Source of the DNA: Patescibacteria group bacterium
GTDB taxonomy: Bacteria > Patescibacteriota > UBA1384 > XYA2-FULL-43-10 > 1-14-0-10-43-13
Reading direction: 5' to 3'
Length of the DNA stretch: 64,000 nt
Assembly: GCA_041671645.1 (NCBI GenBank)
Contig: JBAZBD010000001.1
Coordinates: 735,234-799,233 of the forward strand
Shown here piece by piece: positions 8,580 through 53,394 of the stretch. The translations under genes and the position numbers were made by a program. Every line of letters begins with the position of its first letter. Positions within the stretch are counted from its first letter, which is position 1. The notes beneath the pieces were generated by a model that was given only the letters and a program-made list of their open reading frames with translations, was not told the DNA's origin and did no database searches.

Positions 8580-9536
8580 TTATGGATTAGGAGTTCTTTC
8601 GATTATTTCATCTAGCAACATATATGTATAAATTATTATTTTTTGAGCAACTTCCTTTGTAATTGAGTGTTTATCTCCTTTTGCTTCCAGTCTTGTAACC
8701 GAATCAATCAACTCACATACATATTCGGACGTATCACGTGCTACAGAGTCCTCTATTTTTTTCCCTTTCATAAACTCTTTAATCCTCAGCCTATAGTGTT
8801 CAGTATCAAGCTTAATCACCTTACCATCTCTTGTTGTTGTCGTTTCGTTAGAGGGAGGATAAATAATATCAGCAATTCTTATAATTATTCTTCTGCAACC
8901 ACTTGCGACATTCGACCAGTCTGGTTGATTATCAGAATTGGCAGATTTGTAAGCCGTGACTAATTCTTGCAAAATTTCTGGCACTTTGTTCTTCATCTCT
9001 TTCTCGACAATGTCTCTAATCTCAGAAAAGATGTCTGAAGCAGCCTCACTAAAACTTAACGCATTATATACATCCGCTATAAAACAATATAGCCGTCCTC
9101 TAATACGAGACAGAATTGACTGACTTGTCCTAATAGATTCAGAAATTGTATTTCTTTCAAATGCATTACTATGTGGCACATAAGTTGAATACTGGCTTGA
9201 TGACTGAAATGATATATTTGGGTCATTGGCTACGCTTAATCTAATTTTCAGAGTATCTATGGTGTTCTCAAGTACCTCAACGTGATCTAGTCTATAGATA
9301 ATTTCTTTACCAACCGTCCAGTATCTACCATTTGCTACTATATTGTCCTTGTCACCAGCAACATATTGGTTAAGAGTCCCAGTAATCTCTTTTTCGATCC
9401 AAATTTGATTCTTCGTGTCGTTCACAAGCCGAGCCAACAGAGCACCTTTTTGCAAAAGTATGCTAAGTTTACTACCACCAAAGGTTTCCAAAATCTCAGT
9501 AGCCAAAGTTAGTGCTTTTTTGTGATGGTCTTTCAT
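8580..9536 (-). CDS. Hypothetical protein (island cargo; possible abortive-infection-type protein)
   Basis: 318 aa, no recognisable motif. Located in the AT-rich island upstream of the AAA/S8 operon with its own upstream region. Confidence 0.55.
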   Translation of the reverse strand: MKDHHKKALTLATEILETFGGSKLSILLQKGALLARLVNDTKNQIWIEKEITGTLNQYVAGDKDNIVANGRYWTVGKEIIYRLDHVEVLENTIDTLKIRLSVANDPNISFQSSSQYSTYVPHSNAFERNTISESIRTSQSILSRIRGRLYCFIADVYNALSFSEAASDIFSEIRDIVEKEMKNKVPEILQELVTAYKSANSDNQPDWSNVASGCRRIIIRIADIIYPPSNETTTTRDGKVIKLDTEHYRLRIKEFMKGKKIEDSVARDTSEYVCELIDSVTRLEAKGDKHSITKEVAQKIIIYTYMLLDEIIERTPNP

Positions 9537-16964: not shown

Positions 16965-16997
16965 TGGCTCGAGTCGACTCCGACTCGAGCCTTTTTA
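16965..16997 (+). terminator. Rho-independent terminator
   Basis: GGCTCGAGTCG...CGACTCGAGCC hairpin plus TTTTTAT. Confidence 0.6.
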
Positions 16998-17110
16998 TGT
17001 TGACAGAGAGAAGAAAAGTAGTTATAATGCGCCCAATGTCCAAGATCAAAATGAGCTACCAAATATAGTCATTTTGAACTTGGCAAAAAAATGAGGAGGG
17101 ATAGAATCCC

Positions 17111-18271
17111 ATGGCACACAAACCAACTTTCCGGATCCTCGTCGGAGGATGGCACCTGATGGAGCAAACAATGGGCTTCGGCAATCCGACCAAGGGCGGA
17201 GCGAAAACAATGGACGAGGCATTACGCCAAGTCGCGGATCTGAATGAAGAGCTGTACGACGAGCACGGTTTCGAGCTTAGTGTCTCGGCCCATTTCTGGC
17301 ACGAAATCATGGTATCGCCAAGAGCAGAGAAACTGCGCGATACCTTGCAGTTCAACAATTCGCGCGCCTTATTCCTTGATGAATGGATGTTAGGGATCGA
17401 TGAAGGGATCTACCCCAAGATCGGTCGCATCATCCCGCCGGGCTTCGGCTTACCTTGGAGCGACGACGGCGCTCTGATCAATCCTGACCCAGTCGTGCGC
17501 CAAATTCACCACGACGTGATGGTTCACGCGTTTAAAGAGTCAGCTCATGTACGCGAGTCAGGTCACGGTCTGGGCAACGTCATTTATTGGACCGGGCCGG
17601 ATGGCATTCGCTGGCAAAGGCTGGTCAACGGCGTTGATTCAACCCTGAGTTATGAAGACAACCCCAACCTCGAAGAGTGGAGAATGATAGTTGAAGGCCT
17701 AACCAACGCAGTCGGTGAAGCTCGCGGCCTGGGCTACACCAACGAAAAACTTCTGATTGAAGCAAAGGAAGGTGGAGACCCTTGTTACCTTGACCCGTTT
17801 ACCGACGTATCCCTCCAGATCCTGGCGATTAGCCAAATCAACGAAGGCGTCGGTGCCAAAGTAGCAGAGTGGCAGGGAGAATTCTGCCACACCCGTGGCG
17901 GTGGTACAACCTTTGCCAATGGGATGACCCAAGCGATCGGCGGTGGCGTATTTGGTGGGCGCATTCATCTGAATTCTGGCCCCATAGCTAATCAGCGGTT
18001 TAGCACTATGCTGGCTAAGGGAACACCACTTTCCAAATTCCAGCAGTATGTCGATCCAGACTATTTGCCCGGCCAGGGTGTAGAAGAATGGCTGGACGAT
18101 CAGCAAAAGTCTATCCAAATTGGCGCAGAATGGTCAGCCCAAACCGGGCAACCGTTCGAAATCGAATTCGACGCTCGCTTCTCCAGATACCCTGACATGA
18201 TGGGCGAACTGCGCAAATCAACGCTATGGACTCTACATGAGTTGCAGAAACACGGCGCCTTACCGGCCTAA
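17111..18271 (+). CDS. Xylose-isomerase-like TIM-barrel protein (divergent sugar isomerase family)
   Basis: 386 aa. Block-wise resemblance to class I xylose isomerase: N-terminal FRILVGGWH versus FTFGLWTVGW, IEAKEGGDP versus IEPKPNEP, IHLNSGP versus HIDLNGQ. The canonical metal/catalytic motifs are substituted. Confidence 0.5.
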   Translation: MAHKPTFRILVGGWHLMEQTMGFGNPTKGGAKTMDEALRQVADLNEELYDEHGFELSVSAHFWHEIMVSPRAEKLRDTLQFNNSRALFLDEWMLGIDEGIYPKIGRIIPPGFGLPWSDDGALINPDPVVRQIHHDVMVHAFKESAHVRESGHGLGNVIYWTGPDGIRWQRLVNGVDSTLSYEDNPNLEEWRMIVEGLTNAVGEARGLGYTNEKLLIEAKEGGDPCYLDPFTDVSLQILAISQINEGVGAKVAEWQGEFCHTRGGGTTFANGMTQAIGGGVFGGRIHLNSGPIANQRFSTMLAKGTPLSKFQQYVDPDYLPGQGVEEWLDDQQKSIQIGAEWSAQTGQPFEIEFDARFSRYPDMMGELRKSTLWTLHELQKHGALPA

Positions 18272-18287
18272 CCTTCTCTTGCTTACA

Positions 18288-18322
18288 CTCCCCCGATGGA
18301 TTCCATCGGGGGATTTTTATTT
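18288..18322 (+). terminator. Rho-independent terminator
   Basis: CCCCCGATGGATTCCATCGGGGG hairpin followed by a T-run. Confidence 0.6.
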
Positions 18323-18473
18323 CTCCCTCTTGATTTTTTGTGAAAGTAGTGATATAATAACTACATATTAAGATTGTTCTATAGATTTCCGAAGTAGTAA
18401 TAAATTCGATGTTCTATACGGCAATACGAATTTATTAATGGGTACCCTTTGGGTCCCACACAGAAGGAAATCA

Positions 18474-19712
18474 ATGCAAACGCAAAAAAGGCGCCAATCC
18501 GCCTCTTATTACTTTATGCCTGCAAAAGCACAGGGCAACAGATTCTCTCACGGTTCGAGAGGAAATTTTCGTGGTTCTCAGGGACCTCGCAAGCGTAGCT
18601 TTAGCGAGTCAATCGACGTATCGAAATTCGTTAAAAAAGCCTCTCCAAAAGTTGAGACTGTTTACGAATCAGAACGTACTTTCGCTGACTTCGGCTTCTG
18701 CCCAGAAGTTTACAAGAATTTGGCTTACAAGAAATACACCAAGCCAACTCCGATTCAGGATCAAGCTATCCCATATGTCAAAGAGGGACGAGACATTATC
18801 GGCTTGGCCAATACAGGAACAGGCAAAACTGCTGCTTTCCTCTTGCCTTTGATCGAAAAAGTTTATAAGGACAGAGATCAGAAGGTAATTGTGATCGCTC
18901 CTACTCGCGAGCTCGCTCTACAGATCGAAGTTGAACTTCGTGACTTTTCATGGAATATGAAAATCTTCTCCGCTACCTGTGTTGGTGGTATGCCAATCTT
19001 CAAGCAAATTCAAAATCTGCGCCGCAATCCTGCCTTCGTAATCGGTACTCCTGGTAGATTGAAAGATCTAGCTGAGAAGGGATATATCGATTTCACCAAA
19101 TTCAACAATGTTGTTTTGGACGAGGTTGACCGAATGCTGGACATGGGTTTTGTTGATGAAATCAGAGAAATTTTGAACAAAATCCCAGCCGAAAGACAGA
19201 CTCTCTTCTTCTCAGCTACTATGCCTCCAAAAATCAAAGAATTGACAAGCAAATTCCTGACTGATCCGATCACGGTCGAGGTCAAATCAGGCGAAACTGC
19301 CGACAACGTCGAGCAGGATATCATCCGCGTCAGAAGCAAAGATTCCAAATTTGTTCAGCTGACAGACCTTCTCAAGACTCCAGATTTCAAAAAAGTCTTG
19401 ATCTTCGCTGAGACCAAATCTGAAGTTGATAAATTGGCTACCAATTTGAAACATGAAGGTTTCAGAGCCGATTGTATCCATGGCGACAAGAGACAGCGCG
19501 AACGCGCACGATCCCTGACCCAGTTCAAGACCAACGATGTCAAAATCTTGGTTGCGACCGACGTCGCCGCTCGTGGACTTGATATCAAGGATATCACTCA
19601 CGTCATCAATTACACTGTTCCTCAGACCTACACTGACTATATTCACCGAATCGGCCGTACCGGCCGCGGTAACAGTATGGGTATGGCACTCACTTTCGTA
19701 CCTGGCTACTAA
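18474..19712 (+). CDS. DEAD-box ATP-dependent RNA helicase (DEVD variant) with Arg-rich N-terminus
   Basis: Q-motif TPIQ; motif I ANTGTGKT; motif II DEVD; motif III SAT; motif VI HRIGRTGR. RBS AGGAAA before ATG at 18474. Confidence 0.85.
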   Translation: MQTQKRRQSASYYFMPAKAQGNRFSHGSRGNFRGSQGPRKRSFSESIDVSKFVKKASPKVETVYESERTFADFGFCPEVYKNLAYKKYTKPTPIQDQAIPYVKEGRDIIGLANTGTGKTAAFLLPLIEKVYKDRDQKVIVIAPTRELALQIEVELRDFSWNMKIFSATCVGGMPIFKQIQNLRRNPAFVIGTPGRLKDLAEKGYIDFTKFNNVVLDEVDRMLDMGFVDEIREILNKIPAERQTLFFSATMPPKIKELTSKFLTDPITVEVKSGETADNVEQDIIRVRSKDSKFVQLTDLLKTPDFKKVLIFAETKSEVDKLATNLKHEGFRADCIHGDKRQRERARSLTQFKTNDVKILVATDVAARGLDIKDITHVINYTVPQTYTDYIHRIGRTGRGNSMGMALTFVPGY

Positions 19713-19720
19713 GAGACATG

Positions 19721-19752
19721 AAAAACGTCCCGATTTATATCGGGGCGTTTTT
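19721..19752 (+). terminator. Rho-independent terminator
   Basis: AAACGTCCCGAT...ATCGGGGCGTTT hairpin plus a T-run. Confidence 0.6.
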
Positions 19753-19773
19753 TGGTATACAGGCCTTTCATAA

Positions 19774-20355
19774 ATGCACAAAATCAATTATGATCTGAGT
19801 ATGATTTTTTATATAATTTTATTGGTCTTACTTTCCTTAGTCCTATTCCTGACCATGTTTTGGCAAATTTCTCTACTTTGGGCCGCAATCACAGGCGTGC
19901 CAATTGTCTATTCCTGGAAAGGAGCAGTTCTGGACTCCCTCAAATTGGCTGGTTTGAAATCTGGCGAGACGATTATCGACCTGGGCTCTGGTGACTGCCA
20001 AACATTGATCTTGGCGGCCAAGAAATTCGGTGCAAAGGGTATCGGCGTTGACCGTTCAATCTGGTGTTACCTCAAAGCTAAGTTGAATGTCTGGATGGCT
20101 GGGGAGTCAAAGAATATCCGCATTATCAGAGGCGATTTCAAAGATGTGGAAAAGGAGCTCAAAGCCGCCGACGTGGTATATGTTTATCTTCTAGATCAAG
20201 TCTTGGCACAAATTGAGAAGTGGCTCTTTGACTCAATCGGAGAGAAGACTCGCGTCGTCTCGCTTTCTTTCCTGTTCAAAGTCAGAAAACCTGTCGCCGA
20301 AGCAAACACTCGCAATCTCTATCAGGATACAAAAGCTCGACTTTATAGAAAATAA
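19774..20355 (+). CDS. Class I SAM-dependent methyltransferase with N-terminal TM helix
   Basis: Motif I IIDLGSGDCQ; acidic motif II DVVYVYL. Confidence 0.65.
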   Translation: MHKINYDLSMIFYIILLVLLSLVLFLTMFWQISLLWAAITGVPIVYSWKGAVLDSLKLAGLKSGETIIDLGSGDCQTLILAAKKFGAKGIGVDRSIWCYLKAKLNVWMAGESKNIRIIRGDFKDVEKELKAADVVYVYLLDQVLAQIEKWLFDSIGEKTRVVSLSFLFKVRKPVAEANTRNLYQDTKARLYRK

Positions 20356-20367
20356 CAAGAGGATCTT

Positions 20368-21087
20368 ATGGCCCTAATCGTAAGTCTCGCTACAATTATC
20401 AGCACTTTTCTGGGCGGTCTTTTCGCGATTAGATTCAAAGACAAATTGCATTTGATCCTCGGTTTTTCGGCCGGCTCCGTGATTGGTGTCGCCTTTTTTG
20501 ACCTGCTTCCGGAATCACTGGCTCTGGCCAGCGGCACATATAGCATTAACACCACCATGCTCCTGATTGCCTTCGGATTTGTATTTTATATGCTCCTAGA
20601 CAGAGCCTTTTCACTTCATGGCCATAGCCACGGTGAGCACTGCGAGAATCCAGATCATAGCGGAAAATTGGGTGCCTCAGCTTTGATCTTCCATAGCTTC
20701 CTGGACGGTCTTGTCATTGGCCTCGCTTTCAAAGTCTCCCCTGCAGTCGGCTGGATTGTAGCGGCCGCTGTCCTGGCCCATAGCTTCTCTGACGGAATCA
20801 ACACGGTCAGTATGATTTTGAAGGAGAAGGGCAGCAAGAAACAAGCACTCAAATGGCTGATTTTGGACGCTTTGGCTCCTGCTCTCGGTGTGTTAACCGC
20901 CCTTCTACTCAACGTGAGCGAAACCACACTTGGACTGATCCTGGCCGTATTCACAGGCTTCTTCTTCTACATCGGCGCCAGCGATCTGATCCCAGAAAGT
21001 CATCACCATCATCCCACATTTTGGACCACTTTCATGACCATACTCGGTATGGCCGTACTATACTTTGCAATCCGCCTCGCGCTCTGA
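20368..21087 (+). CDS. ZIP family metal (zinc) transporter
   Basis: Paired HSFLDGL and AHSFSDGI motifs in TM helices; His-rich loop HGHSHGEH; 239 aa with ~8 TM. Confidence 0.75.
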   Translation: MALIVSLATIISTFLGGLFAIRFKDKLHLILGFSAGSVIGVAFFDLLPESLALASGTYSINTTMLLIAFGFVFYMLLDRAFSLHGHSHGEHCENPDHSGKLGASALIFHSFLDGLVIGLAFKVSPAVGWIVAAAVLAHSFSDGINTVSMILKEKGSKKQALKWLILDALAPALGVLTALLLNVSETTLGLILAVFTGFFFYIGASDLIPESHHHHPTFWTTFMTILGMAVLYFAIRLAL

Positions 21088-21139
21088 CAATAAAAAACCG
21101 CATCGAATAGCTCAATGCGGTCGGTTTTGACTGTATAAT

Positions 21140-21937
21140 TTACAGTTTATTTTGGTGTCCGATCAGGGTGCCGACTTCTTCTCCTCGGGCAAACCGAAGA
21201 ATTGTGTTGTCGTCTGGCCCGGCGATGACAGTGAGGAACCCTTCGTTGGCTGCATTCACAGCTTGGAGAATCTTCTTGTTCATGCCGCCTTTGCCAGTAG
21301 TCTGACAATCTGCCAAGAGATTAAATGGGATGTCGTCACGGTCAATCTCGAGGTATTGGATCGCGTAAGGATCAGTCACTGGATTGCCAGTAAATACAGC
21401 ACCAGATTTTGTGATCAAGATCAGAGCCGAGGGCCTGATGATACGGCCAAGGAGCACTGCCAAATGATCGTTTTCGCTAACGCCAAGATTCATCGCCTTG
21501 ATCTCCTCGTCGGAGACGATATCGTTCTCGTTGATGATCGGCACGATGTTTCGAGCGAAACACTCCTCGATGTTGGTCAGAATCGTGCCATCTTCGGCTG
21601 TCAAATTGGCATAAGTGAGCCAAAATGGTGCGATCTCGTGGCCAAAGTTGGAAAACGCCGATCCCCAGAAATTGAGCAGATGCCTAGTCCCAATGCCAGA
21701 CAAAATCTTCTCTGGAATCGGAGCGGCATCTTGACCGATATCGGTCATGCGCTCTTTGCCTGCCTGAATCGCTCCCGAAGAAACGATAGCGACCTTGATG
21801 CCCTGAAGCATCAGAACAGCGACTTGTCGAGCGATATTAGCAAAAATTTCTGCTGATAATCGGCTCATTTCTCCCATCAAACTTTCGCGCCCAAATTTGA
21901 GCAACAGTATTTCTCCAGACTGCATTACTCGTCTCAT
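21140..21937 (-). CDS. proB: Glutamate 5-kinase (ProB, lacking the PUA domain)
   Basis: Block alignment to E. coli ProB: KFGRESL, VAIVSSGAIQAGKE, NIVPIINENDIVSDEEIK, LILITKSGAVFTGNP, TGKGGMNKKILQA. Start at MRRVMQ with RBS GAGGGGG. Confidence 0.75.
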   Translation of the reverse strand: MRRVMQSGEILLLKFGRESLMGEMSRLSAEIFANIARQVAVLMLQGIKVAIVSSGAIQAGKERMTDIGQDAAPIPEKILSGIGTRHLLNFWGSAFSNFGHEIAPFWLTYANLTAEDGTILTNIEECFARNIVPIINENDIVSDEEIKAMNLGVSENDHLAVLLGRIIRPSALILITKSGAVFTGNPVTDPYAIQYLEIDRDDIPFNLLADCQTTGKGGMNKKILQAVNAANEGFLTVIAGPDDNTILRFARGEEVGTLIGHQNKL

Positions 21938-21947
21938 TGTGTGCCCC

Positions 21948-21995
21948 CTCAACAGAAAAATGGTCTTGCCAAGCAAGACCATCCAATTTACCACG
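21948..21995 (-). promoter_or_regulatory. Leader hairpin (10-bp perfect stem ATGGTCTTGC/GCAAGACCAT) plus U-tract immediately upstream of the proB RBS; copy 1 of a repeated 47-nt element
   Basis: Near-identical 47-nt sequence at 23119..23166 upstream of the neighbouring gene. Confidence 0.5.
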
Positions 21996-22030
21996 AAATA
22001 CACTTTTTGGCAATAAAACGCCCCGCTTAA

Positions 22031-23107
22031 TTAAGCAGGGCAGGTAGCCTCCAAATTGACATATTGCGACATTTGTCGCATCCAGGGTGGCAGCTCACCA
22101 ATCAAACAGTGAATGCCAGCCTGGTTTAGGACTGGGTAATAACGGATCGGTGCCGATGTAGTCCAAATCTGGTCTTCACCAATAATTCCAGCGACGATCT
22201 CGGCTACCTCGTCCTCTCCGCTTGTCATCAATACTCGGCCTGATGATGGAGATTGATAAAAACAAAGAGATGCAGGGATATTGAGTGGCGAGGTAGGAAC
22301 GTGAATCTGTATCTCATTCTCGCCGCAAATTCTCCGATAAATTTCCAGGGTTTCTTTGTTCGTCATGAAACCAGAAATATTACGTATCCAGGCCTGTATC
22401 TTCGGATCGATTATAAGATGTGAACCGCCTGACCTGTCAGTAATCAGACCCATAAATAGATCGAGGTGATTGCCGAAATTGGCTGCCTTCGAGCGGACCT
22501 GTAGCGTTACTGGGGTGGGTAGAGCCACTGGTCTGATCCCAGAAACTCTGATGGAGCGACAGTCAGGTCTGACTATTTGATAAAATCCGTCTTTTTGCTT
22601 CGGATTTCTCTCCTCTGCGACGTTCTCCGGATAAATAGCCTTACCGCCCCCGATCGATGTCCGGCCTCCTTCGCCAAGATGGCTGACCATCACTTTGATC
22701 TTCTCGGTAGCCAATTTGTCGAAATTGTAAGGTTTGTTGTAACACACGAGTGTGTTACCGTCAGGCAGACAGACTGCCAAATCCCGCGGATACAAGAGCT
22801 TCACTTGGTTTATCTCGGGGAAATCAACGAATTCAAATCCGGCCTGTTCAAACCGACCGAGCATATCAGCCCAGTCCGGTTTGACATAAGCACGGATGAT
22901 ACTGAAATCTTCCCCCATCCGCATCAATGTCGCCGCAATCGTGCAGTATTCGAAATAGATAATCTCTCGTGCGCGTTCGATGTCTCCATCGATCTGCTCC
23001 AAAATCTTAAGACTGATTCCGAATTGTCCCCCAGGGTATTCGTAGTTTGTCCGAATCCGAGCGCCAAAGCTTGGCAAGCCAAGATATATGTCTGGTATGT
23101 ACTTCAT
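22031..23107 (-). CDS. Amidinotransferase/arginine-deiminase superfamily-like enzyme (tentative)
   Basis: 358 aa from MKYIPD (RBS GAGGAGG). C-terminal AGIHCLIG resembles the G-G-x-H-C catalytic-Cys motif of that superfamily. Upstream of proB and shares the leader element. Confidence 0.4.
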   Translation of the reverse strand: MKYIPDIYLGLPSFGARIRTNYEYPGGQFGISLKILEQIDGDIERAREIIYFEYCTIAATLMRMGEDFSIIRAYVKPDWADMLGRFEQAGFEFVDFPEINQVKLLYPRDLAVCLPDGNTLVCYNKPYNFDKLATEKIKVMVSHLGEGGRTSIGGGKAIYPENVAEERNPKQKDGFYQIVRPDCRSIRVSGIRPVALPTPVTLQVRSKAANFGNHLDLFMGLITDRSGGSHLIIDPKIQAWIRNISGFMTNKETLEIYRRICGENEIQIHVPTSPLNIPASLCFYQSPSSGRVLMTSGEDEVAEIVAGIIGEDQIWTTSAPIRYYPVLNQAGIHCLIGELPPWMRQMSQYVNLEATCPA

Positions 23108-23118
23108 TGCGTTTGCCT

Positions 23119-23166
23119 CCTCAACAGAAAAATGGTCTAGCAGTGCAAGACCATCCAATTTACCAG
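23119..23166 (-). promoter_or_regulatory. Copy 2 of the 47-nt hairpin/U-tract leader element (stem ATGGTCTAGC/GCAAGACCAT, one mismatch), between tRNA-Arg and the 22031..23107 gene
   Basis: 45 of 47 nt identical to 21948..21995. Also positioned as a terminator for the upstream tRNA-Arg(CCG). Confidence 0.5.
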
Positions 23167-23195
23167 TAATCTGAGCTGAAGTCAATCAATATCGT

Positions 23196-23271
23196 TGGTA
23201 CCCGCGAAGGGAATTGAACCCCCGACCTCTCGGACCGGAACCGAGCGCTCTATCCACTGAGCTACGCGGGC
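23196..23271 (-). tRNA. tRNA-Arg (anticodon CCG)
   Basis: Cloverleaf from the minus strand: GCCCGCG/CGCGGGT acceptor, D-arm GCTCAGTGGATAGAGC, anticodon loop TTCCGGT, T-arm GGGGGTTCAATTCCCTT, encoded CCA. Confidence 0.85.
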
Positions 23272-23282
23272 AAATTATAATG

Positions 23283-23332
23283 ATCCACTGTCAGCCAGAG
23301 GCTGATCGGCCTTTGGCCGAAGCTACGCGGGC
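23283..23332 (-). pseudogene. Partial tRNA-Arg 5' copy (positions 1-12 and 13-20) split by a 30-nt double-hairpin insert, 11 nt upstream of the intact tRNA-Arg(CCG)
   Basis: Minus strand reads GCCCGCGTAGCT[TCGGCCAAAGGCCGATCAGCCTCTGGCTGA]CAGTGGAT. The flanks are identical to tRNA positions 1-20. Confidence 0.5.
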
Positions 23333-23393
23333 ATACCAAAACAAGACACCATCCATTTATACTTTAGAACTTGATAACTTTCAACTAATAGCG

Positions 23394-23846
23394 CTATTCT
23401 TCAGCAGCACGGTAGTCTTTGCGGAAGATTAGCTGCATGAACTCGATAATAATTCCGATTGCAGTACCAAGAGAAGAGGCGCCTAGAACTATTTTGGCCA
23501 GTCTGTCCCAATTGAAGCTCGAGTACATAGAAAAATCGAAAGGAAATACGAAAAAGAGAGACAGGAGGGCCAGGAAACCAAAAGTGTTCATGATCAGGCG
23601 CACGAAGCCATGGAACCATTTGGGATCGTGCAGGATCAGGAGTAGATAGCCAACGATCGCGGCAAGATACGACAGAGTCAGCATCCATTGGACTGAATTA
23701 AAATCTGAGGTCAGAAAAGGCACATGCCAGGCGAGCAAATTGCTCACGACCCAAATCATTATGGTGTTGGCTACAATAAGACTAGCATAGCCAGCCTTGC
23801 GAGCATGATTATATTTCGAACTATCTTTGGCAGTTTTCTTGGCCAT
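23394..23846 (-). CDS. Hypothetical membrane protein (4 TM)
   Basis: RBS AGGAGGG; 150 aa; hydrophobic helices. Confidence 0.6.
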   Translation of the reverse strand: MAKKTAKDSSKYNHARKAGYASLIVANTIMIWVVSNLLAWHVPFLTSDFNSVQWMLTLSYLAAIVGYLLLILHDPKWFHGFVRLIMNTFGFLALLSLFFVFPFDFSMYSSFNWDRLAKIVLGASSLGTAIGIIIEFMQLIFRKDYRAAEE

Positions 23847-23990
23847 TCCCCTCCTTGTGTTATTGATAATATTTTAACCCAAAACGGAATAAATAAAAAG
23901 TTGCTGTTGACAGAAAACTACTTCGAGTCTAGATTATACCTATTGCCAATTATTCAATTGTGCATATTTATTTGTAAGAAGGATAATTAT

Positions 23991-24650
23991 ATGAGAGATA
24001 AGATTATTTTCGTGTTGATAGGGGCTGTTTTGATCTCGGGGCTTAGCTATGCGTTGATTAAAGGTCGGGTGAAATTGCCTACATCAAGTGTCGCATCCGA
24101 AAAAGCGGAAATATTGAAAGTAAAAGCAGACGATCATGTTCGCGGTAGTTTGGACGCGCCAATCACCATTGTCGAATATTCTGACTTCCAGTGCCCATAT
24201 TGTGTCAAATACGCCTTTACTCTCCAGGAAATCATGGTCGCTTATCCAGGCAAGATCAAATGGGTATTTCGTCACTATCCTCTGCCGTTTCACCAAGCAG
24301 CCAAGGGCGCTGGTATTTCGGCTGAAGCGGCCGGAAATCAGGGGAAATTCTGGGAGTACGCCGACATATTGTTTGAGAAATCACAGGCCGATGGCACGGG
24401 GCTGGCAAACGATGATTTCGTCCAATACGCACTACAACTCGGGATGGACGTAAATCAATTTAGTAGTGACGCCGCTGACCCGAAATATGAGCAAAAGATC
24501 AACAGCAACACTGCTGACGGAGATAAGCTCAAAATTACCGGCACTCCGGCCAGCTTCATGATCGACAGCAAGGGCAATATTCAGGATTTGACGGGCAATG
24601 TTCCCTACGATCAATTGAAACTAAAGATTGACGCGATACTAAATAAATAG
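23991..24650 (+). CDS. DsbA-like thiol:disulfide oxidoreductase (thioredoxin fold, CPYC)
   Basis: YSDFQCPYC active site with an N-terminal TM anchor. Paralog of 43172..43903, which has the same motif. Start at MRDKII (the ORF track's longer start lacks an RBS). Confidence 0.7.
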   Translation: MRDKIIFVLIGAVLISGLSYALIKGRVKLPTSSVASEKAEILKVKADDHVRGSLDAPITIVEYSDFQCPYCVKYAFTLQEIMVAYPGKIKWVFRHYPLPFHQAAKGAGISAEAAGNQGKFWEYADILFEKSQADGTGLANDDFVQYALQLGMDVNQFSSDAADPKYEQKINSNTADGDKLKITGTPASFMIDSKGNIQDLTGNVPYDQLKLKIDAILNK

Positions 24651-24661
24651 ATCGAATACGA

Positions 24662-24691
24662 AAAACAGCCAGTCATCTGGCTGTTTTTTTG
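24662..24691 (+). terminator. Rho-independent terminator
   Basis: CAGCCAGTCATCTGGCTG hairpin plus T7. Confidence 0.6.
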
Positions 24692-24769
24692 ATAAAAGTT
24701 ATGGACATAGCAAACATATTTTGCTAAGGTCAAGCCAGCCGAAAGGCAAATCTGTTTGAAAAGGAGGAA

Positions 24770-25198
24770 ATGATGAAATATTTCCTTTTACAAGGTGTCT
24801 TCTTCCAAGACGTGGCACGGCTTGGTGTCTCTCTGCGTTCCGGAGAAGCGAAAGCTGTTGTCAAAACCCAACAAGAGTATACGCTTTTCTCTGGCATCAT
24901 CCAGATTAATGACGATGCCGAAGAGACAACAGGCGAGCCTTGTGGCGCGATAATGGATGTGTACGGAGTAGCAGACATATCGCATCTCACTTTGACAGCG
25001 TCGACGTTCGTCTTCGGTAAACAGTATCGCGGTCGCCTCGACATGATTCGATACCACTTCAGTAAGGTGGGCAACGAATGGATCGGCTCATACAAGGGTG
25101 ACAGAGTCGGCACTGGTACTGCTCGATGTCATCTCACAGAAGTGAAGGAGGAATTCTTCACGCCACCACTCATTCCAAACCCAAGGCTAACAAAATGA
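24770..25198 (+). CDS. Hypothetical protein
   Basis: Strong RBS AAAGGAGG; 142 aa. Confidence 0.5.
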   Translation: MMKYFLLQGVFFQDVARLGVSLRSGEAKAVVKTQQEYTLFSGIIQINDDAEETTGEPCGAIMDVYGVADISHLTLTASTFVFGKQYRGRLDMIRYHFSKVGNEWIGSYKGDRVGTGTARCHLTEVKEEFFTPPLIPNPRLTK

Positions 25199-25202
25199 TT
25201 GT

Positions 25203-25790
25203 TCAGCCTTTTTTATTTGCAAACATTTTCCCGTGGCCAGGGATGATGAAATCGGCGAGATCTAATATTTTCTGACGATTCTTTTTGAGTAATTCTATAT
25301 CTTTGGCGTAGGGGTCAGGATGATTGGCCAGACTTTCACGGTCAATTTTCTGCCCCTCCCCATCTACCCACCAAAATAAGTCTCCGGCTACGGCGTAAGT
25401 TTTTCCTTCGACCTTGACAATAAATGAACGAGAATCTCCGCTGTGGCCAGGAGTTTTGATAATTTCTAGATCCAGCCCCAGGACTTGACCATCATAATAG
25501 GTCTGGCGATCGTTGTCATATAATTCTGTGGGCGTAACGATTTTGGCGTTTTCGAAAATCCCCGAAAGTAGTATGTGATCAGTATGATTGTGAGTTTGCA
25601 GGACAAAATCTATGTCCCCTGTTTTCAGATTATTTTCCGCCAAAGAGCTAATTAGTCTAGCACGATTGCAACCGGGATCAACTACAATATTTTTGTTGTC
25701 TAATTTAATCAAGGTAGTTGTAGAACTGGCGATCCAGCCACCTTCAATTTCATGGTCATAACCGTCAATTAATACTTTCACTTCTGTCAT
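25203..25790 (-). CDS. MBL-fold metallo-hydrolase
   Basis: HxHxDH motif (LQTHNHTDHI) and downstream His/Asp ligands; 195 aa. Confidence 0.75.
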   Translation of the reverse strand: MTEVKVLIDGYDHEIEGGWIASSTTTLIKLDNKNIVVDPGCNRARLISSLAENNLKTGDIDFVLQTHNHTDHILLSGIFENAKIVTPTELYDNDRQTYYDGQVLGLDLEIIKTPGHSGDSRSFIVKVEGKTYAVAGDLFWWVDGEGQKIDRESLANHPDPYAKDIELLKKNRQKILDLADFIIPGHGKMFANKKG

Positions 25791-25872
25791 ATCATTCCTT
25801 CTTTATTTGCTTTGGGAGCGGGTTTGTAGTATAAAAATACTAACAATATATCTTGTACATTGGGGGAAAATC

Positions 25873-26061
25873 ATGAAACAGTGCATATGTTGCAAGTGCT
25901 ACTTGGATGCCAAAGACAAGTTTTGTTATTCATGCAAAACGAGGCAACCGCAAGCAGACAATTTCCCTATGAGCGGCCATCATGCCACAAGTAGACCCGT
26001 TGACCCAAATCGTGGGACTCAAGCGAAACGTTCCAAGTTTAAGCAAAGAATTATCTGGTGA
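25873..26061 (+). CDS. Small double zinc-ribbon protein
   Basis: MKQCICCKCYLDAKDKFCYSCK; internal ATG with RBS GGGGGAAA. Confidence 0.35.
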   Translation: MKQCICCKCYLDAKDKFCYSCKTRQPQADNFPMSGHHATSRPVDPNRGTQAKRSKFKQRIIW

Positions 26062-26080
26062 TCACAATGGTGGTCACTTT

Positions 26081-26551
26081 TTATTTCTTGGCGTCTTTGG
26101 CTTTTTCGAACTTGAACCAGCCTAGCGCGAGAGCAAAAAGCATACCGACCGTCACGATGATAAAGCGGAATTTGACATCCTCGGTCATCATACCTCGGAT
26201 AATACCATAGATCAAAGTGAAGAGACTGCCCAACAAGATTCCGTTGGAAAAGACAATTATTTTATCGACTATTAGTAGACTGATGATCATGAGCAGTATA
26301 CTGGCCGACAGCGCGACGATAGAAACATTTCTGCTGTGCTTGGCCGCTCTCTCATTGTAGGCCTTTTGGATCTGGTCGAACTCCTTTTGAGCTTCGATTG
26401 TCGCTGGCGCAGTTCCCGTCTTGTCCACCGAATACTGCAGAGCCGCAGGCGTTTCGGGCGCTTTCTCCCCTGGATAGAAAACTTCGATTCCTAGACCGAT
26501 AAATAGAGCAACGATCGCCCCCAACAGGATTGAATACAAAACCTTAATCAT
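26081..26551 (-). CDS. Hypothetical membrane protein (tandem paralog A)
   Basis: 156 aa; same TM/soluble-domain architecture and N-terminus (M-x-K-x-LYSI-LGA) as the adjacent 26569..27030 gene. Confidence 0.55.
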   Translation of the reverse strand: MIKVLYSILLGAIVALFIGLGIEVFYPGEKAPETPAALQYSVDKTGTAPATIEAQKEFDQIQKAYNERAAKHSRNVSIVALSASILLMIISLLIVDKIIVFSNGILLGSLFTLIYGIIRGMMTEDVKFRFIIVTVGMLFALALGWFKFEKAKDAKK

Positions 26552-26568
26552 ATTTCTCCTTTGTTATA

Positions 26569-27030
26569 TTATTTGGTCTCTAATTTCACAAATTTGATTA
26601 GGCCGATGATCTTAACGATTACCAAGCTTATAAGCGCAGCAAAGAAATTGAATTTTGAGGCAATTATGTAGGGGCTTGGAATGAATGTAAGATAGAGAAG
26701 AAAAACGCTTCCCACAGCCGCACCATTGTACAGTGGGGCAAATTTCGGAGAAGTGAAGAATATGCCGACCGCAATCAGAATCAAGCTGGCGAATAGTGCT
26801 AGGGCTAGGGAGACTTGAGCGTGGGTGTCGGAGGACTTGTTGTAATCAACGACCTTGATATCATATTCTGTCTGAGCCGATTGCTGAGCTGCTGTCAGAT
26901 CCTCCGATACGGCTTGGAGTTCTGTAGGATACTCTGGATAACTCGCGGCTGGATAGAACGTTTGAATCGCAAAATTAATAGTGATCGCGAGCAACGCCCC
27001 CAAAAAGATCGAGTAGAGTGCCTTGACCAT
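26569..27030 (-). CDS. Hypothetical membrane protein (tandem paralog B)
   Basis: 153 aa; paralogous to 26081..26551. Confidence 0.55.
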   Translation of the reverse strand: MVKALYSIFLGALLAITINFAIQTFYPAASYPEYPTELQAVSEDLTAAQQSAQTEYDIKVVDYNKSSDTHAQVSLALALFASLILIAVGIFFTSPKFAPLYNGAAVGSVFLLYLTFIPSPYIIASKFNFFAALISLVIVKIIGLIKFVKLETK

Positions 27031-27054
27031 AGAAACTCCTTCTTTATTATTCTC

Positions 27055-27612
27055 TTAGATTATATTCCGCAAGGCTTCCTCAAGCAAGTTTAGAGCTTTT
27101 TCGTAATACGGAGCGGCAAGCTCTTTTGCCTTCTTTGAGGAGATTCTCTCGTACATCCATCGGAATTTGTCTCGCATTTCCGAGCCTGGAACTTCGCCGA
27201 GGTGGCCGACGTGTCTAGGCGCATTTACTTCTAGATAGCTTAAAGAGTCTGCGTCTTTGAGCAGATTTTGATCGTCCGTCCCCCCAATTTCATGTTTTGA
27301 GATTATTTCTTTGACAGAATCAGCCAAACTGCTATCAGCAAACTCATGTATGATAAAATCATACATTATGGCCGCGCTTTTTTCTTGATGCTCGGTTAGC
27401 TGTTCTGGCTTTTCATACATTAATCTCATTCGATCGCCCTTGTCTTTTTTGAATGCTCGCTCGACATCATGGCCATAGGCGGCAATTTGCAGAGCCAAGC
27501 TAGCATCGGGCTTTAGCACGAACAACCAATGCAAAGTCTGAACATAATGTGCCTTCTTGCCCCCAAACGAGTCGTTAACGAATTTGACAGTCTTTTGTAG
27601 TGTGTCTTCCAT
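27055..27612 (-). CDS. HD-domain phosphohydrolase
   Basis: H...HD metal-binding motif (AAYGHDVERA); 185 aa. Confidence 0.7.
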   Translation of the reverse strand: MEDTLQKTVKFVNDSFGGKKAHYVQTLHWLFVLKPDASLALQIAAYGHDVERAFKKDKGDRMRLMYEKPEQLTEHQEKSAAIMYDFIIHEFADSSLADSVKEIISKHEIGGTDDQNLLKDADSLSYLEVNAPRHVGHLGEVPGSEMRDKFRWMYERISSKKAKELAAPYYEKALNLLEEALRNII

Positions 27613-27620
27613 ACATGTAT

Positions 27621-28535
27621 CTAATTATTTAATAAATATGTGCCCAAGAATATAATGCCGATCGCTACAATTTTCTGCACCAAATTTCTCTTCGAGAGTG
27701 TTTCGTGAGCAAGTTTGGGAGTGAGGAGCGTTAAAATTACGCCGAAAAGCAAAACGAAGAATGGCTGGAGACCGTTGCTCACCACTGATACAACTGCAAG
27801 TGGCATAAGTAGCATGGCGAAAGTAAATATAAGTCCAGCGGCGACGTTGATAATTTCGTTGAAGAAAGTAATACTGAGAATGAAGGATTTGCTCTGACTG
27901 ATTATCTCGATGAAAACTTTCTTCCAGCTTGGGTTGAGGGAAAATACGACGAGACCGGCGATGAAAAGACCCAAGAAGTCCCAAAATTGCGTGTTCCAAT
28001 AGTTGCTCTCTACAGCCACATATTTGAAAGCCAGACCGTTCACCGCGGTGACAGCCGTGCAAAGAAGCATGGGTAGGATAACATGCATCTTGAACTTGAA
28101 TTTGTTGCCGACCGATTCAATGGTCAAGATCAGTGACCCTGCTATGACCAGTATGCAAGCAAATATTTGTCCACTGGTCAGATATTCATTTAGGAAAAAC
28201 ATCCCCAAAAAGTAGCGAAAAATTGGAATCAGCTGGAAAAGCGGGACGACAACCGAAGGGCTATCTTTCTTGAGAGCCAGCAGGTAAAGATACCCACTCA
28301 GGAAACTGGCCGCCCCAGAGACAAGCATGATCAAAGCTGACTTGGGGTCCGTAGAGATGGAGCCAAAACGAAAAAGCAAAACGTAAAGAGAAACTAATAT
28401 TCCAAAAAATGAGGTAAATAACATAAAAGGACCGCCGTCGCGGTTCTTGAAAAACTTGCCCAGAATATATTTGTCGATATGATTCGAAAGCGCCCAGAGG
28501 GCTGGTGGAATAATAGAAAATATTAGCCAATTCAT
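27621..28535 (-). CDS. EamA/DMT-superfamily transporter (10 TM)
   Basis: Duplicated 5-TM EamA-like halves; PALWALSNHIDKY near the N-terminus. Start placed at MNWLIF. Confidence 0.6.
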   Translation of the reverse strand: MNWLIFSIIPPALWALSNHIDKYILGKFFKNRDGGPFMLFTSFFGILVSLYVLLFRFGSISTDPKSALIMLVSGAASFLSGYLYLLALKKDSPSVVVPLFQLIPIFRYFLGMFFLNEYLTSGQIFACILVIAGSLILTIESVGNKFKFKMHVILPMLLCTAVTAVNGLAFKYVAVESNYWNTQFWDFLGLFIAGLVVFSLNPSWKKVFIEIISQSKSFILSITFFNEIINVAAGLIFTFAMLLMPLAVVSVVSNGLQPFFVLLFGVILTLLTPKLAHETLSKRNLVQKIVAIGIIFLGTYLLNN

Positions 28536-28663
28536 AGACAAATTATACGCTGAATGGGCTTCGTTTTCAATTAAAATACTCTCGCGGATATCGAAGGGAG
28601 CCAAATTGTGATATAAACCCTGCTTGACTTCATCTCGCTTTCGTTATCTGCTAAAATGGATCT

Positions 28664-31266: not shown

Positions 31267-31650
31267 TTATTTGGCTTTATCCAATATCGATTTGATTTTG
31301 TTGACAACGTCCAGCGGCAAGGCTTCCGATTTGGCGATGTAATCAGCCGCGCCGAGGCTTATGCCCTGTCGTTTCTTCTGCTCATCTGATAGTGCGGAGA
31401 GAACAATAACGGGGATACCGGCCGTTTCCGGATTAGCTTTGATCTGCTTCAATACATCAAAACCGTTGATCTTGGGCATCATCACATCCAGCAACACTAT
31501 ACTTGGTTTCGAAGACTTAACCTGTGATAGAGCCTCCTCGCCGTCCTTTGCCTCGACAACAATAGCGCCCTCGGCCTTGATCCGAGCGACATACATTTCG
31601 AGCAACATTGGGTCATCGTCAACGATCAGAACAACATATCCTTCTAGCAT
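31267..31650 (-). CDS. Single-domain response regulator (CheY-like receiver)
   Basis: DDD acidic pocket (IVDDD), phospho-acceptor Asp in LLDVMMP, conserved Lys; 127 aa. Confidence 0.8.
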   Translation of the reverse strand: MLEGYVVLIVDDDPMLLEMYVARIKAEGAIVVEAKDGEEALSQVKSSKPSIVLLDVMMPKINGFDVLKQIKANPETAGIPVIVLSALSDEQKKRQGISLGAADYIAKSEALPLDVVNKIKSILDKAK

Positions 31651-40221: not shown

Positions 40222-40584
40222 TTATTTCTCAAGACAGTTGTGTTGGACAGCCTTGTCTATTTTAGTTTTTGGTTTTCTTTTAAGTAGTTTATTTAACTTA
40301 GCTTCATTTTCTTTCAATACACCCCTGTTTAGATGGTGAACACTAAAATATCCACGCTTATGCTCGCTTAAAACTCCAGCTTCCTTGAGTTTGCCAAGGT
40401 GATGGGAAACCAAATTTTGGGGGAGATTTAAAGCTTCGCTAATATCACAGACACATTTACAATCATGCGAAAGTAGCGTCAGAATCTTTAATCTGTTCGG
40501 ATCAGCGATAACTTTGAGAAACTTACTGATATTCTCAATCTGACTCAAATCTTCGGTATTTAAGTAATCCATTATTTTATCCAT
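40222..40584 (-). CDS. ArsR/SmtB family metalloregulator
   Basis: HTH with a metal-sensing Cys pair (CKCVCDISEAL) and LVSHHL; directly upstream of the P-type ATPase. Confidence 0.8.
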   Translation of the reverse strand: MDKIMDYLNTEDLSQIENISKFLKVIADPNRLKILTLLSHDCKCVCDISEALNLPQNLVSHHLGKLKEAGVLSEHKRGYFSVHHLNRGVLKENEAKLNKLLKRKPKTKIDKAVQHNCLEK

Positions 40585-53080: not shown

Positions 53081-53262
53081 AAAAACCTTTCAAATTCTCA
53101 ACATCAAATTAGGCCAGCTTGATCTGACTAGCCAGAGTAATAGTTCCTAGATTGATATATGAGAATATTTTTTTCATAAATTAATAAAATTACATGCTGA
53201 TTATAGCTTTTTCGTATAGAAAATGCAAATTGGTCTACATAATAATCAAGACCAGACTAGCC

Positions 53263-53377: not shown

Positions 53378-53394
53378 TTAGAAAATATGGTAAT

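What the first reader, a model, noticed from the sequence alone, without database searches (positions are those of the whole stretch)
21948..23166. Duplicated 47-nt leader element (perfect 10-bp hairpin plus U-tract immediately before the RBS) upstream of proB and of the neighbouring amidinotransferase-like gene
Seen in sequence: 21948..21995 and 23119..23166 are 45/47 identical (CTCAACAGAAAAATGGTCT[T/A]GC[CAA/AGT]GCAAGACCATCCAATTTACCA on the + strand). On the coding (minus) strand each reads hairpin ATGGTCTTGC-nnn-GCAAGACCAT followed by TTTTTCTGTT, then GAGG(G/A)GG RBS and ATG within ~15 nt. The stem-loop differences are confined to the loop and one stem position.
Inference: this could be a transcription attenuator or terminator that is read through conditionally, a palindromic operator for a dimeric regulator that co-regulates two amino-acid metabolism genes (glutamate 5-kinase and a guanidino-group enzyme, suggesting Arg/Pro/ornithine metabolism), or a member of a genome-wide repeat family. 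A terminator only 15 nt before an RBS leaves no room for a promoter, so regulated read-through from the upstream tRNA-Arg or gene is implied.
Basis: seen in the sequence. Interest (0 to 1): 0.55.

Follow-up and report, generated by a model that had tools for sequence, protein, structure and literature searches.

The report
Duplicated promoter-plus-hairpin leader cassette
Two neighbouring genes in a tiny Saccharibacteria genome are each preceded by the same ~55-70-nt module (promoter -10 box, a 23-bp palindrome at the predicted transcription start, a T-run and a ribosome-binding site), so it looks like a lineage-specific shared control region and not a genome-wide repeat or a classical attenuator.

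Summary
The repeat is real: 21939-21993 and 23111-23165 are 49/55 identical. The palindrome ATGGTCTTGC-N3-GCAAGACCAT occurs only twice in the window, with 0 expected.

It is not REP-like. Scans of 185,579 species genomes, JGI metagenomes and viral contigs found one related copy. That copy lies upstream of the gene-2 orthologue in a syntenic Saccharibacteria MAG, which lacks the proB-like gene.

All three copies have a -35 hexamer 17 bp upstream. The palindrome therefore spans about -4 to +19, and read-through from the tRNA is not required.

Between the orthologues, the -35 hexamer and the stretch from the -10 box to the T-run show 0/41 differences, while the promoter spacer shows 8/17. The module is under selection.

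There is no covariation, no antiterminator, no Rfam hit and no adjacent regulator gene.

Best reading (about 0.4): the palindrome acts as an RNA hairpin plus U-tract, stopping incoming transcription and forming the 5' end of its own mRNA. A close rival (about 0.33) is a TSS-overlapping operator for an unidentified repressor.

Gene 2 has a pentein (guanidino-modifying) fold. "proB" is only glutamate-5-kinase-like. Interest is modest.

The parts
21939..21993 (-). Repeat copy 1, the leader of the proB-like gene. It runs from the extended -10 box to just past the SD.
   Evidence: the repeat finder family D2; sequence.
23111..23165 (-). Repeat copy 2, the leader of gene 2 (pentein-fold gene).
   Evidence: It is 49/55 identical to copy 1. 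The orthologous copy in L001 at 5943-6000 matches it at 23/23 positions of the palindrome.
22008..22013 (-). Predicted -35 hexamer TTGCCA for the proB-like gene. It lies outside the duplicated segment, 17 bp from the -10 box.
   Evidence: Promoter scan.
21985..21993 (-). Extended -10 box TGG-TAAATT of copy 1.
   Evidence: TG_before_second = yes.
21960..21982 (.). 23-bp palindrome ATGGTCTTGC-TTG-GCAAGACCAT with a perfect 10-bp stem. It starts 2 nt after the -10 box, so the predicted TSS falls in its left arm.
   Evidence: RNA hairpin dG is -13.7 kcal/mol for 10 bp and -15.7 kcal/mol for 12 bp including G.U pairs.
21950..21959 (-). T-run/linker TTTTCTGTTG immediately 3' of the hairpin.
   Evidence: listed as terminator-like.
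21944..21950 (-). Shine-Dalgarno sequence GAGGGGG, 6 nt before the ATG at 21937-21935.
   Evidence: Sequence.
21140..21937 (-). proB-like gene of 265 aa. It has an AA_kinase domain only and no PUA domain. It is glutamate-5-kinase-like but scores below the equivalog cut-off.
   Evidence: PF00696 84 bits. TIGR01027 132.6 bits against a cut-off of 186. Nearest homologues are 37-44% identical, ~260-aa AA_kinase-only proteins, mostly unnamed (one labelled Candidatus Pacebacteria).
22019..22042 (-). Separate canonical intrinsic terminator of gene 2: GC-rich stem followed by TTTTATTG, located upstream of the copy 1 promoter.
   Evidence: dG -16.1 kcal/mol.
22031..23107 (-). Gene 2, 358 aa. It belongs to an uncharacterised family with a pentein / guanidino-group-modifying fold.
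   Evidence: No Pfam or NCBIfam hit. AF2 model pLDDT 84. Foldseek hits to agmatine deiminase, AGAT and DDAH at E 4e-7 to 1e-5. Invariant R108, D109, H214, D216, H230 and C334.
23180..23185 (-). Predicted -35 hexamer TTGACT for gene 2, 10 nt after the tRNA-Arg 3' end. It is identical in L001.
23157..23165 (-). Extended -10 box TGG-TAAATT of copy 2.
23132..23154 (.). 23-bp palindrome of copy 2, ATGGTCTTGC-ACT-GCTAGACCAT, with one U.U mismatch.
   Evidence: dG is -9.5 to -11.5 kcal/mol. Identical in L001.
23116..23131 (-). T-run TTTTCTGTT plus SD GAGGAGG of copy 2. The ATG is at 23107-23105.
   Evidence: Sequence.
23196..23271 (-). tRNA-Arg(CCG), the upstream transcription unit. The copy 2 hairpin is the first terminator-like structure after it.
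   Evidence: ARAGORN; Rfam tRNA 64.5 bits.
23348..23384 (-). tRNA-Arg promoter: TTGAAA, 17-bp spacer, TATAAA(T), then GGATGGTGTCTTG. Its core resembles the repeat's TAAATTGGATGGTCTTG, but it has no right palindrome arm.

Best explanation
The repeat is a duplicated promoter-plus-5'-leader module that drives two adjacent monocistronic genes. Each copy contains, in order:
- an extended -10 box (TGnTAAATT), with a -35 hexamer 17 bp upstream;
- a GG discriminator;
- a 23-bp palindrome that begins 2 nt after the -10 box, so transcription is predicted to start inside its left arm;
- a U-run;
- a strong SD and the ATG.

I propose that the palindrome acts mainly as RNA, in two ways:
1. In transcripts arriving from upstream (tRNA-Arg for copy 2, gene 2 for copy 1) the full 10-12-bp hairpin plus U-run forms and works as an intrinsic terminator/insulator.
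2. Transcripts started at the module's own promoter carry only a truncated 7-8-bp hairpin at their very 5' end. This hairpin terminates less well. It may set expression level by partial promoter-proximal termination and may protect the 5' end from 5'-dependent RNases.

The copy in front of the proB-like gene arose by intragenomic duplication of the gene-2 module, or both copies are old and the relative lost one. Either way the two genes share expression signals.

Shown: the repeat, the promoter-like anatomy, purifying selection on the module, its rarity, and the hairpin energetics.
Inferred: the TSS position, termination, and any effect on mRNA stability.
For: Promoter:
- -35 / 17 bp / TG-extended -10 is found for both copies and for the orthologue in L001.
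- The -35 of copy 1 lies outside the duplicated DNA yet keeps the 17-bp spacing.
- Window copy 2 vs L001: -35 0/6 differences, spacer 8/17, and 0/35 across the -10 box, GG, palindrome and T4. With the spacer as a neutral proxy, P is about 2e-10.

RNA-level reading:
- The hairpin is followed by T5CTGTT (T6GTT in L001) on the coding strand only. This resembles the T4-5ATTT tails of bona fide terminators in this window.
- Hairpin dG is -9.5 to -15.7 kcal/mol, overlapping the weaker end of the local terminator range of -11 to -21.
- The T-run and linker are invariant between paralogues, while the SD-to-ATG stretch shows several differences (alignment).
- tRNA-Arg has no other terminator before gene 2.
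- The neighbouring tRNA-Arg promoter shares the left arm (TAAAT-GGATGGT-CTTG) but not the right arm. This suggests the left arm is promoter / initially transcribed sequence and the right arm was added to pair with it.
- All 4 paralogue differences fall on the 4 unpaired positions.
- 5'-terminal stem-loops are listed as mRNA stabilisers in E. coli and B. subtilis in the reference list of PMC3997798.
- RNase Y is encoded in the window.
Against: - No TSS or 3'-end data exist.
- There is no covariation: 11 of 12 pairs are invariant and none shows a compensatory change. RNA pairing is therefore not distinguished from DNA symmetry.
- A terminator at +20 to +30 of its own mRNA is costly.
- Copy 1 already has a dedicated upstream terminator at 22019-22042, so an insulator role there is redundant, yet its stem is the perfect one.
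- Other 5' UTRs in the window lack such hairpins. That specificity fits an operator better than a general RNA feature.
- The loop and the U.U mismatch are identical in the orthologue despite 47% spacer divergence. This is weak evidence (p about 0.08) for sequence-specific rather than structural constraint.
- Distant gene-2 orthologues have no conserved hairpin.
Confidence: 0.4

Rival explanations
1. The palindrome is a DNA operator. It overlaps the TSS (about -4 to +19), in a lacO/CIRCE-like position, and is bound by a dimeric repressor encoded elsewhere in the genome. That repressor co-regulates gene 2 and the proB-like gene. The T-run would be incidental or a translation-related UTR feature.
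For: - A 10-3-10 inverted repeat sits exactly over the predicted TSS of two promoters.
- It is unique to these two genes in 64 kb; other leaders have no hairpin.
- Variation is confined to the central 3 bp plus one inner position, as expected for a non-contacted centre.
- All 23 positions, including the loop and the mismatch, are identical in the orthologue while the spacer is 47% diverged.
- The symmetry ends exactly at 10 bp.
Against: - No regulator gene is adjacent in the window or in L001.
- The only HTH proteins found in the window are an ArsR-type protein (40222-40584) and a TrmB-type protein (55300-56013). Both are far away, and no TGGTCT...AGACCA-type palindrome was found next to either gene.
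- By eye, the sequence does not match operator consensuses I know (CIRCE, the DasR dre site, ArgR, LexA, Fur/Zur, Rex). This rests on recall, not on a database test.
- The strand-specific T-run directly abutting the stem is conserved in all three copies and is not explained.
- The left arm alone also occurs at the tRNA-Arg promoter.
Confidence: 0.33
2. The hairpin is simply the intrinsic terminator of tRNA-Arg in a compact intergenic region. Copy 1 is a passive by-product of duplicating about 70 nt of promoter and leader to express the proB-like gene, and the hairpin has no role of its own in expressing the downstream genes.
For: - The tRNA-Arg to gene 2 spacer is only 88 nt, and the palindrome is the only terminator-like structure in it.
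- Another tRNA in the window (tRNA-Ser) is followed by a hairpin plus T-run.
- The related genome has only the tRNA-adjacent copy.
Against: - Copy 1 keeps every paired base and the T-run while the SD-to-ATG stretch has diverged, and its stem is perfect rather than decayed.
- Copy 1 sits behind a separate strong terminator.
- Placing a promoter upstream of the preceding unit's terminator is unusual. Elsewhere in this window the order is terminator then promoter.
Confidence: 0.15
3. The element is a conditional transcription attenuator. The terminator would be read through in response to an amino-acid, tRNA or ligand signal, with expression coming from the upstream tRNA-Arg or gene 2 promoter.
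For: Terminator-like hairpin plus U-run directly before the SD. The location next to tRNA-Arg and amino-acid-related enzymes is suggestive.
Against: - Each copy has its own promoter with its -10 box 2 nt from the hairpin, which leaves no leader for a sensor.
- No competing antiterminator appears in folds of 117-172 nt of upstream RNA.
- There is no Rfam family and no leader peptide ORF.
- Copy 1 lies behind a real terminator.
Confidence: 0.05
4. The element belongs to a dispersed REP/MITE-like palindromic repeat family, or is a recombination site such as an integron attC.
For: Palindromic, intergenic, and present in two copies in the same orientation 1172 nt apart.
Against: - There are only 2 copies in 64 kb.
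- In 185,579 species genomes the only related hit is the single orthologous site. The other 42 hits are coding, high-GC or unrelated terminators.
- Nothing related was found in metagenome or viral scans or in plasmids.
- There is no integrase nearby, and the arms lack the attC core sites RYYYAAC/GTTRRRY.
Confidence: 0.02

Closest known systems
Rho-independent (intrinsic) terminators, including promoter-proximal or overlapping terminator-promoter arrangements in compact genomes
   Same: A stem-loop of 10-12 bp is directly followed by a U-run on the transcribed strand. Its energy overlaps the range of local terminators. It lies downstream of a tRNA gene.
   Different: It sits downstream of a promoter's -10 box, not upstream of the promoter. 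The stem is only 50% GC, with A-U pairs at its base, and copy 2 has an internal mismatch. It is duplicated together with the promoter and SD.
CIRCE/HrcA and lacO-type operators that overlap the transcription start and are also transcribed as a 5' hairpin
   Same: An inverted repeat lies between the -10 box and the SD and is shared by more than one transcription unit. The centre of the repeat is variable.
   Different: The sequence is unrelated to TTAGCACTC-N9-GAGTGCTAA. The geometry is 10-3-10. No cognate repressor has been identified. A T-run follows the repeat.
5'-terminal stabilising stem-loops (ompA, papA, aprE leaders)
   Same: A hairpin is predicted at or within a few nt of the mRNA 5' end, followed about 12 nt later by a strong SD.
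   Different: Those stabilisers are not followed by a U-run. The TSS here is only predicted.
Leader attenuators and riboswitches (trp, pyr, T-box)
   Same: A terminator hairpin lies in front of genes from amino-acid-related enzyme families.
   Different: There is no antiterminator, no sensor domain and no leader peptide. The leader is about 47-49 nt in total and there is no Rfam match.

Membership tests
Intrinsic terminator | Stable G+C-containing stem-loop immediately followed by a U-rich tract on the transcribed strand | tested here: met
   one search lists copy 1 (12 pairs, 5 GC, loop 3, tail TTCTGTTGAG). dG is -13.7 to -15.7 kcal/mol for copy 1 and -9.5 to -11.5 for copy 2, against -11 to -21 for local terminators.
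Intrinsic terminator | RNA 3' ends generated at the U-tract | not testable with these tools
   Needs Term-seq or in vitro transcription.
Sigma-70-type promoter | -35 and -10 hexamers at 16-18 bp spacing, here with an extended TG motif, in front of the gene | tested here: met
   TTGCCA/17/TAAATT and TTGACT/17/TAAATT, both with TG. The same is found in L001. The hexamers are conserved and the spacer is diverged. Such consensus hits are common by chance (7 found vs 4.8 expected in 3.2 kb), so the support comes from position and conservation.
Sigma-70-type promoter | Mapped transcription start | not testable with these tools
   No transcriptome data are available.
Transcription attenuator / riboswitch | Mutually exclusive antiterminator structure plus a sensing element (aptamer, leader peptide, T-box or protein site) | tested here: not met
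   Folds of 60-172 nt show only the hairpin. No Rfam family down to E = 10. The -10 box lies 2 nt from the hairpin.
Repressor operator | Inverted repeat overlapping the promoter/TSS and shared by co-regulated genes | tested here: met
Repressor operator | A cognate DNA-binding protein | tested here: inconclusive
   No HTH gene within about 10 kb either side, in the window or in L001. ArsR- and TrmB-type genes exist elsewhere in the window. The rest of the genome was not available.
CIRCE element | Consensus TTAGCACTC-N9-GAGTGCTAA upstream of chaperone genes | tested here: not met
   The sequence is ATGGTCTTGC-N3-GCAAGACCAT, and the downstream genes are not chaperones.
REP/BIME/MITE-like dispersed repeat | Many copies scattered in unrelated intergenic regions | tested here: not met
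   2 copies in 64 kb. 1 related copy among 185,579 species genomes. None in the metagenome or viral scans.
Conserved RNA structure | Compensatory base changes that maintain pairing | tested here: inconclusive
   Only 3 sequences are available. 11 of 12 pairs are invariant and there are 0 compensatory changes.
Glutamate 5-kinase (ProB) for the downstream gene | Score above the TIGR01027 equivalog cut-off; usually a PUA domain and a proA partner | tested here: not met
   132.6 bits against a cut-off of 186. AA_kinase domain only. No proA next to it here or next to homologues.
Pentein / guanidino-group-modifying enzyme superfamily for gene 2 | Pentein (guanidino-group-modifying enzyme) fold with a catalytic Cys near the C-terminus plus His/Asp residues | tested here: met
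   AF2 pLDDT 84 and pTM 0.87. The top 30 PDB matches are all agmatine deiminase, AGAT, DDAH or PPAD, with TM about 0.4-0.54. Invariant C334 (GIHC), H214, D216, R108 and D109. Substrate is unknown, and there is no Pfam model hit.

The most novel reading that the evidence does not exclude
The 23-bp palindrome is the recognition site, as DNA or as a 5' RNA hairpin, of a so far unknown regulator in Saccharibacteria. That regulator would co-control an uncharacterised pentein-fold enzyme family (no Pfam model; about 275 representative clusters) and a PUA-less glutamate-5-kinase-like kinase. Together these would define a new guanidino-compound or amino-acid salvage module in a CPR epibiont, and the element would be one of the first experimentally addressable cis-regulatory elements in this phylum.
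Probability: 0.12. Interest if true: 0.55.

Novelty: new member of a known kind. Interest (0 to 1): 0.3.

Why it matters
Gene regulation in Saccharibacteria/CPR bacteria is almost uncharted. Here a compact, clearly delimited module (promoter, TSS-overlapping palindrome, U-run, SD) is shown to be under purifying selection and to be reused for a second gene. That gives a concrete handle for reporter assays and protein pull-downs, and it is an example of promoter/leader duplication in a reduced genome. It does not reveal a new mechanism, and the element is confined to one narrow lineage.

Tried and rejected
1. Genome-wide or cross-phylum repeat. The pattern ATGGTCTNGCNNNGCNAGACCAT in genome contigs gave 43 loci. 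Forty-two were unrelated: coding sequence in high-GC genomes, or other organisms' terminators. The flank-anchored pattern in metagenome contigs gave 13 unrelated hits. Viral scans gave 0 hits and 4 chance hits. Plasmid blastn found nothing.

2. Rfam at E up to 10 found only the tRNA.

3. Conserved hairpin upstream of distant gene-2 orthologues. L002, L062, L063, L065 and L004 have sigma-70-like promoters but no shared structure.

4. General 5'-hairpin habit of this genome. About 17 other predicted promoter/UTR pairs have no comparable TSS-proximal hairpin.

5. Adjacent regulator. None was found by Pfam within the neighbourhood.

6. Foreign origin of the proB-like cassette. GC and GC3 are like those of its neighbours.

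7. Integron attC or recombination site. No core sites and no integrase.

8. Literature search for Saccharibacteria TSS or promoter data, or for this gene pair. Nothing relevant was found.

9. Exact-sequence look-ups of the window's gene 2 (358-aa form) and of P0010 failed.
Full report
OBSERVATION

The repeat exists. The repeat finder reports 21939-21993 and 23111-23165 as a 55-nt pair at 89% identity. The palindrome ATGGTCTTGCNNNGCAAGACCAT, searched with up to 3 mismatches, occurs only at 21960-21982 (perfect) and 23132-23154 (one mismatch). None of 100 shuffles produced a match.

- The 47-nt core is 43/47 identical, not 45/47.
- The second copy starts at 23120.
- Only copy 1 has a perfect stem. 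Copy 2 has a U.U mismatch in the RNA.

An independent Logan assembly (L061) is 100% identical across both copies.

ANATOMY

Read on the coding (minus) strand, both copies are: TGG-TAAATT, GG, ATGGTCTTGC-NNN-GC(A/T)AGACCAT, TTTTCTGTT, GAGG(G/A)GG, 6-8 nt, ATG.

The promoter scan finds TTGCCA/17 nt/TAAATT for the proB-like gene and TTGACT/17 nt/TAAATT for gene 2, each with the TG of an extended -10 box.

The palindrome starts 2 nt after the -10 box, so a normally spaced start site falls in its left arm. The -35 hexamer of copy 1 lies in non-homologous DNA but keeps the 17-bp spacing.

A separate GC-rich terminator for gene 2 (22019-22042, -16.1 kcal/mol) precedes the copy 1 promoter.

This argument does not hold.

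DISTRIBUTION

The only related copy outside the window is in an uncultured Candidatus Saccharibacteria MAG (GCA_964526355.1; L001/L044). This MAG is syntenic with window 16965-28551 at 67-85% nucleotide identity.

In that genome the element sits in the same place, between tRNA-Arg(CCG) and the gene-2 orthologue (61% aa identity). The proB-like gene and its leader copy are absent: gene 2 is followed directly by the ZIP transporter gene.

The other searches gave nothing related:
- The other 42 genome hits are unrelated coding or terminator sequences.
- The metagenome scan, the viral scans and the plasmid search found no related copy.
- Rfam has no family for the element.

The REP-like option is therefore refuted.

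SELECTION

Between window copy 2 and L001:
- the -35 hexamer shows 0/6 differences;
- the promoter spacer shows 8/17;
- the -10 box, GG, the whole palindrome (including its loop and its mismatch) and the first four T's show 0/35.

With the spacer as a neutral proxy, the probability of 0/35 is about 2e-10.

Between the two paralogous copies, all four differences in the 47-nt core fall on the four unpaired positions: three loop bases and the mismatch site. The SD-to-ATG stretch has several further changes.

The module is thus constrained, but all three sequences share the same stem. There is no covariation: 11 of 12 pairs are invariant and none is compensatory. The data cannot separate RNA pairing from DNA symmetry.

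CONTEXT

The proB-like gene (265 aa):
- It has an AA_kinase domain only.
- It scores 132.6 bits on TIGR01027 against a cut-off of 186.
- Its nearest relatives are 37-44% identical, ~260-aa AA_kinase-only proteins, mostly unnamed, one labelled Candidatus Pacebacteria. The two whose neighbourhoods I examined (P0011, P0015) have no proA neighbour.

Gene 2:
- It has no Pfam or NCBIfam hit.
- A confident AF2 model (pLDDT 84) matches agmatine deiminase, arginine:glycine amidinotransferase, DDAH and PPAD.
- The family keeps an invariant Cys in a GIHC motif plus His, Asp and Arg residues.
- The word-indexed search found 9 homologues. The profile search found 275 representative clusters.
- None of the six homologue contexts examined has a kinase next to it. 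The pairing is specific to this genome.

GC and GC3 of the kinase gene match those of its neighbours.

No regulator gene lies nearby. An ArsR-type and a TrmB-type HTH protein are encoded 17 and 32 kb away.

MECHANISM

A conditional attenuator is unlikely. There is no antiterminator alternative in folds of up to 172 nt, the predicted leader is too short to hold a sensor, and there is no known RNA family.

Two readings remain.

(a) RNA-level reading. The full hairpin (-9.5 to -15.7 kcal/mol) followed by a U-run resembles the weaker genuine terminators of this window (-11 to -21 kcal/mol with T4-5ATTT tails). It would stop transcripts coming from tRNA-Arg, which has no other terminator, or from gene 2. 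Transcripts starting at the module's own promoter would lack the first 2-5 nt of the left arm. They would carry a weaker 7-8-bp hairpin at their very 5' end. For a start at the sixth nucleotide after the -10 box, the copy 2 hairpin is essentially unstable. Three observations support this reading: the strand-specific T-run is invariant between the paralogues, every paired base is retained, and the adjacent tRNA-Arg promoter shares only the left arm (TAAAT-GGATGGT-CTTG).

(b) DNA operator reading. A 10-3-10 inverted repeat over the TSS of two promoters, found nowhere else in the window, with a variable centre and complete sequence identity in the orthologue, is also what a repressor site looks like. 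The geometry resembles lacO or CIRCE.

I weight (a) at about 0.4 and (b) at about 0.33. Passive inheritance of a tRNA terminator gets about 0.15.

COMPARISON WITH KNOWN SYSTEMS AND NOVELTY

The element works like known things: an intrinsic terminator, a 5' hairpin, or a TSS-overlapping operator. It is not a member of any curated RNA family or of any operator consensus I could match.

It is a lineage-specific instance of a known kind. The duplication of a whole promoter-leader cassette to serve a second gene is a tidy evolutionary detail.

Interest is modest (0.3). It would rise if a dedicated regulator, or a link to a new guanidino-compound pathway in Saccharibacteria, were demonstrated.

Noticed in passing
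window 23272-23332 (minus strand), upstream of tRNA-Arg(CCG): There is a 61-nt insertion relative to the related MAG L001. The first 13 nt of the tRNA (TGCCCGCGTAGCT) are duplicated and flank a 48-nt insert. The insert has two similar 6-bp hairpins (TCGGCC-AAA-GGCCGA and TCAGCC-TCT-GGCTGA) and ends in TATAAT just before the real tRNA. The independent Logan contig L061 begins inside the tRNA-Arg gene (window 23268), just downstream of this insertion.
   Followed up: partly
window 53308-53394 (+), upstream of tRNA-Lys: The same kind of feature occurs here. A partial copy of the tRNA-Lys 5' end (GGGTTGTTAG ... CTCAATTGGTAGAGCA) is interrupted by a 44-nt insert containing a tandem ACCCGAAGGGT hairpin motif, just upstream of the real tRNA. 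Split or duplicated tRNA 5' portions may be a recurring small insertion type in this genome.
   Followed up: no
window 23348-23384 (minus strand): The tRNA-Arg promoter (TTGAAA, 17 bp, TATAAA) is followed by GGATGGTGTCTTG, which closely resembles the repeat's TAAATTGGATGGTCTTG. Three consecutive same-strand transcription units therefore share a promoter core, and this core is conserved in L001.
   Followed up: partly
window 53231-53254: A third palindrome with the same outer half-sites, TGGTCT-N12-AGACCA, lies in the intergenic region between a divergent 506-aa ORF and tRNA-Lys. About 0.06 such sites are expected by chance in the window. It could be a weak extra site for an operator model.
   Followed up: no
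window 22031-23107 (minus strand): Gene 2 belongs to an uncharacterised pentein-fold family with no Pfam or NCBIfam model. It keeps a GIHC Cys and His/Asp residues. The family has 275 representative clusters at 50% identity. Its substrate is unknown.
   Followed up: partly
window 21140-21937 (minus strand) vs L001 7077-7097: The whole cassette of about 925 bp (promoter, leader, proB-like gene, terminator) is present in the window genome and absent from the syntenic relative. In both genomes the junctions lie at terminator T-runs (TTTTATTG). The direction of the event, insertion or deletion, is unresolved.
   Followed up: partly
window 8580-9536 (-) and 47387-48187 (+): One ORF has an AbiTii domain (abortive-infection type) and another has a Replic_Relax domain. 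These hint at defence or mobile-element genes elsewhere in the window.
   Followed up: no
window 40222-40584 (-), 55300-56013 (+), 31267-31650 (-): The regulators found in the window are an ArsR-family HTH protein next to a 672-aa ORF, a TrmB-type HTH protein, and a stand-alone response-regulator receiver domain.
   Followed up: no
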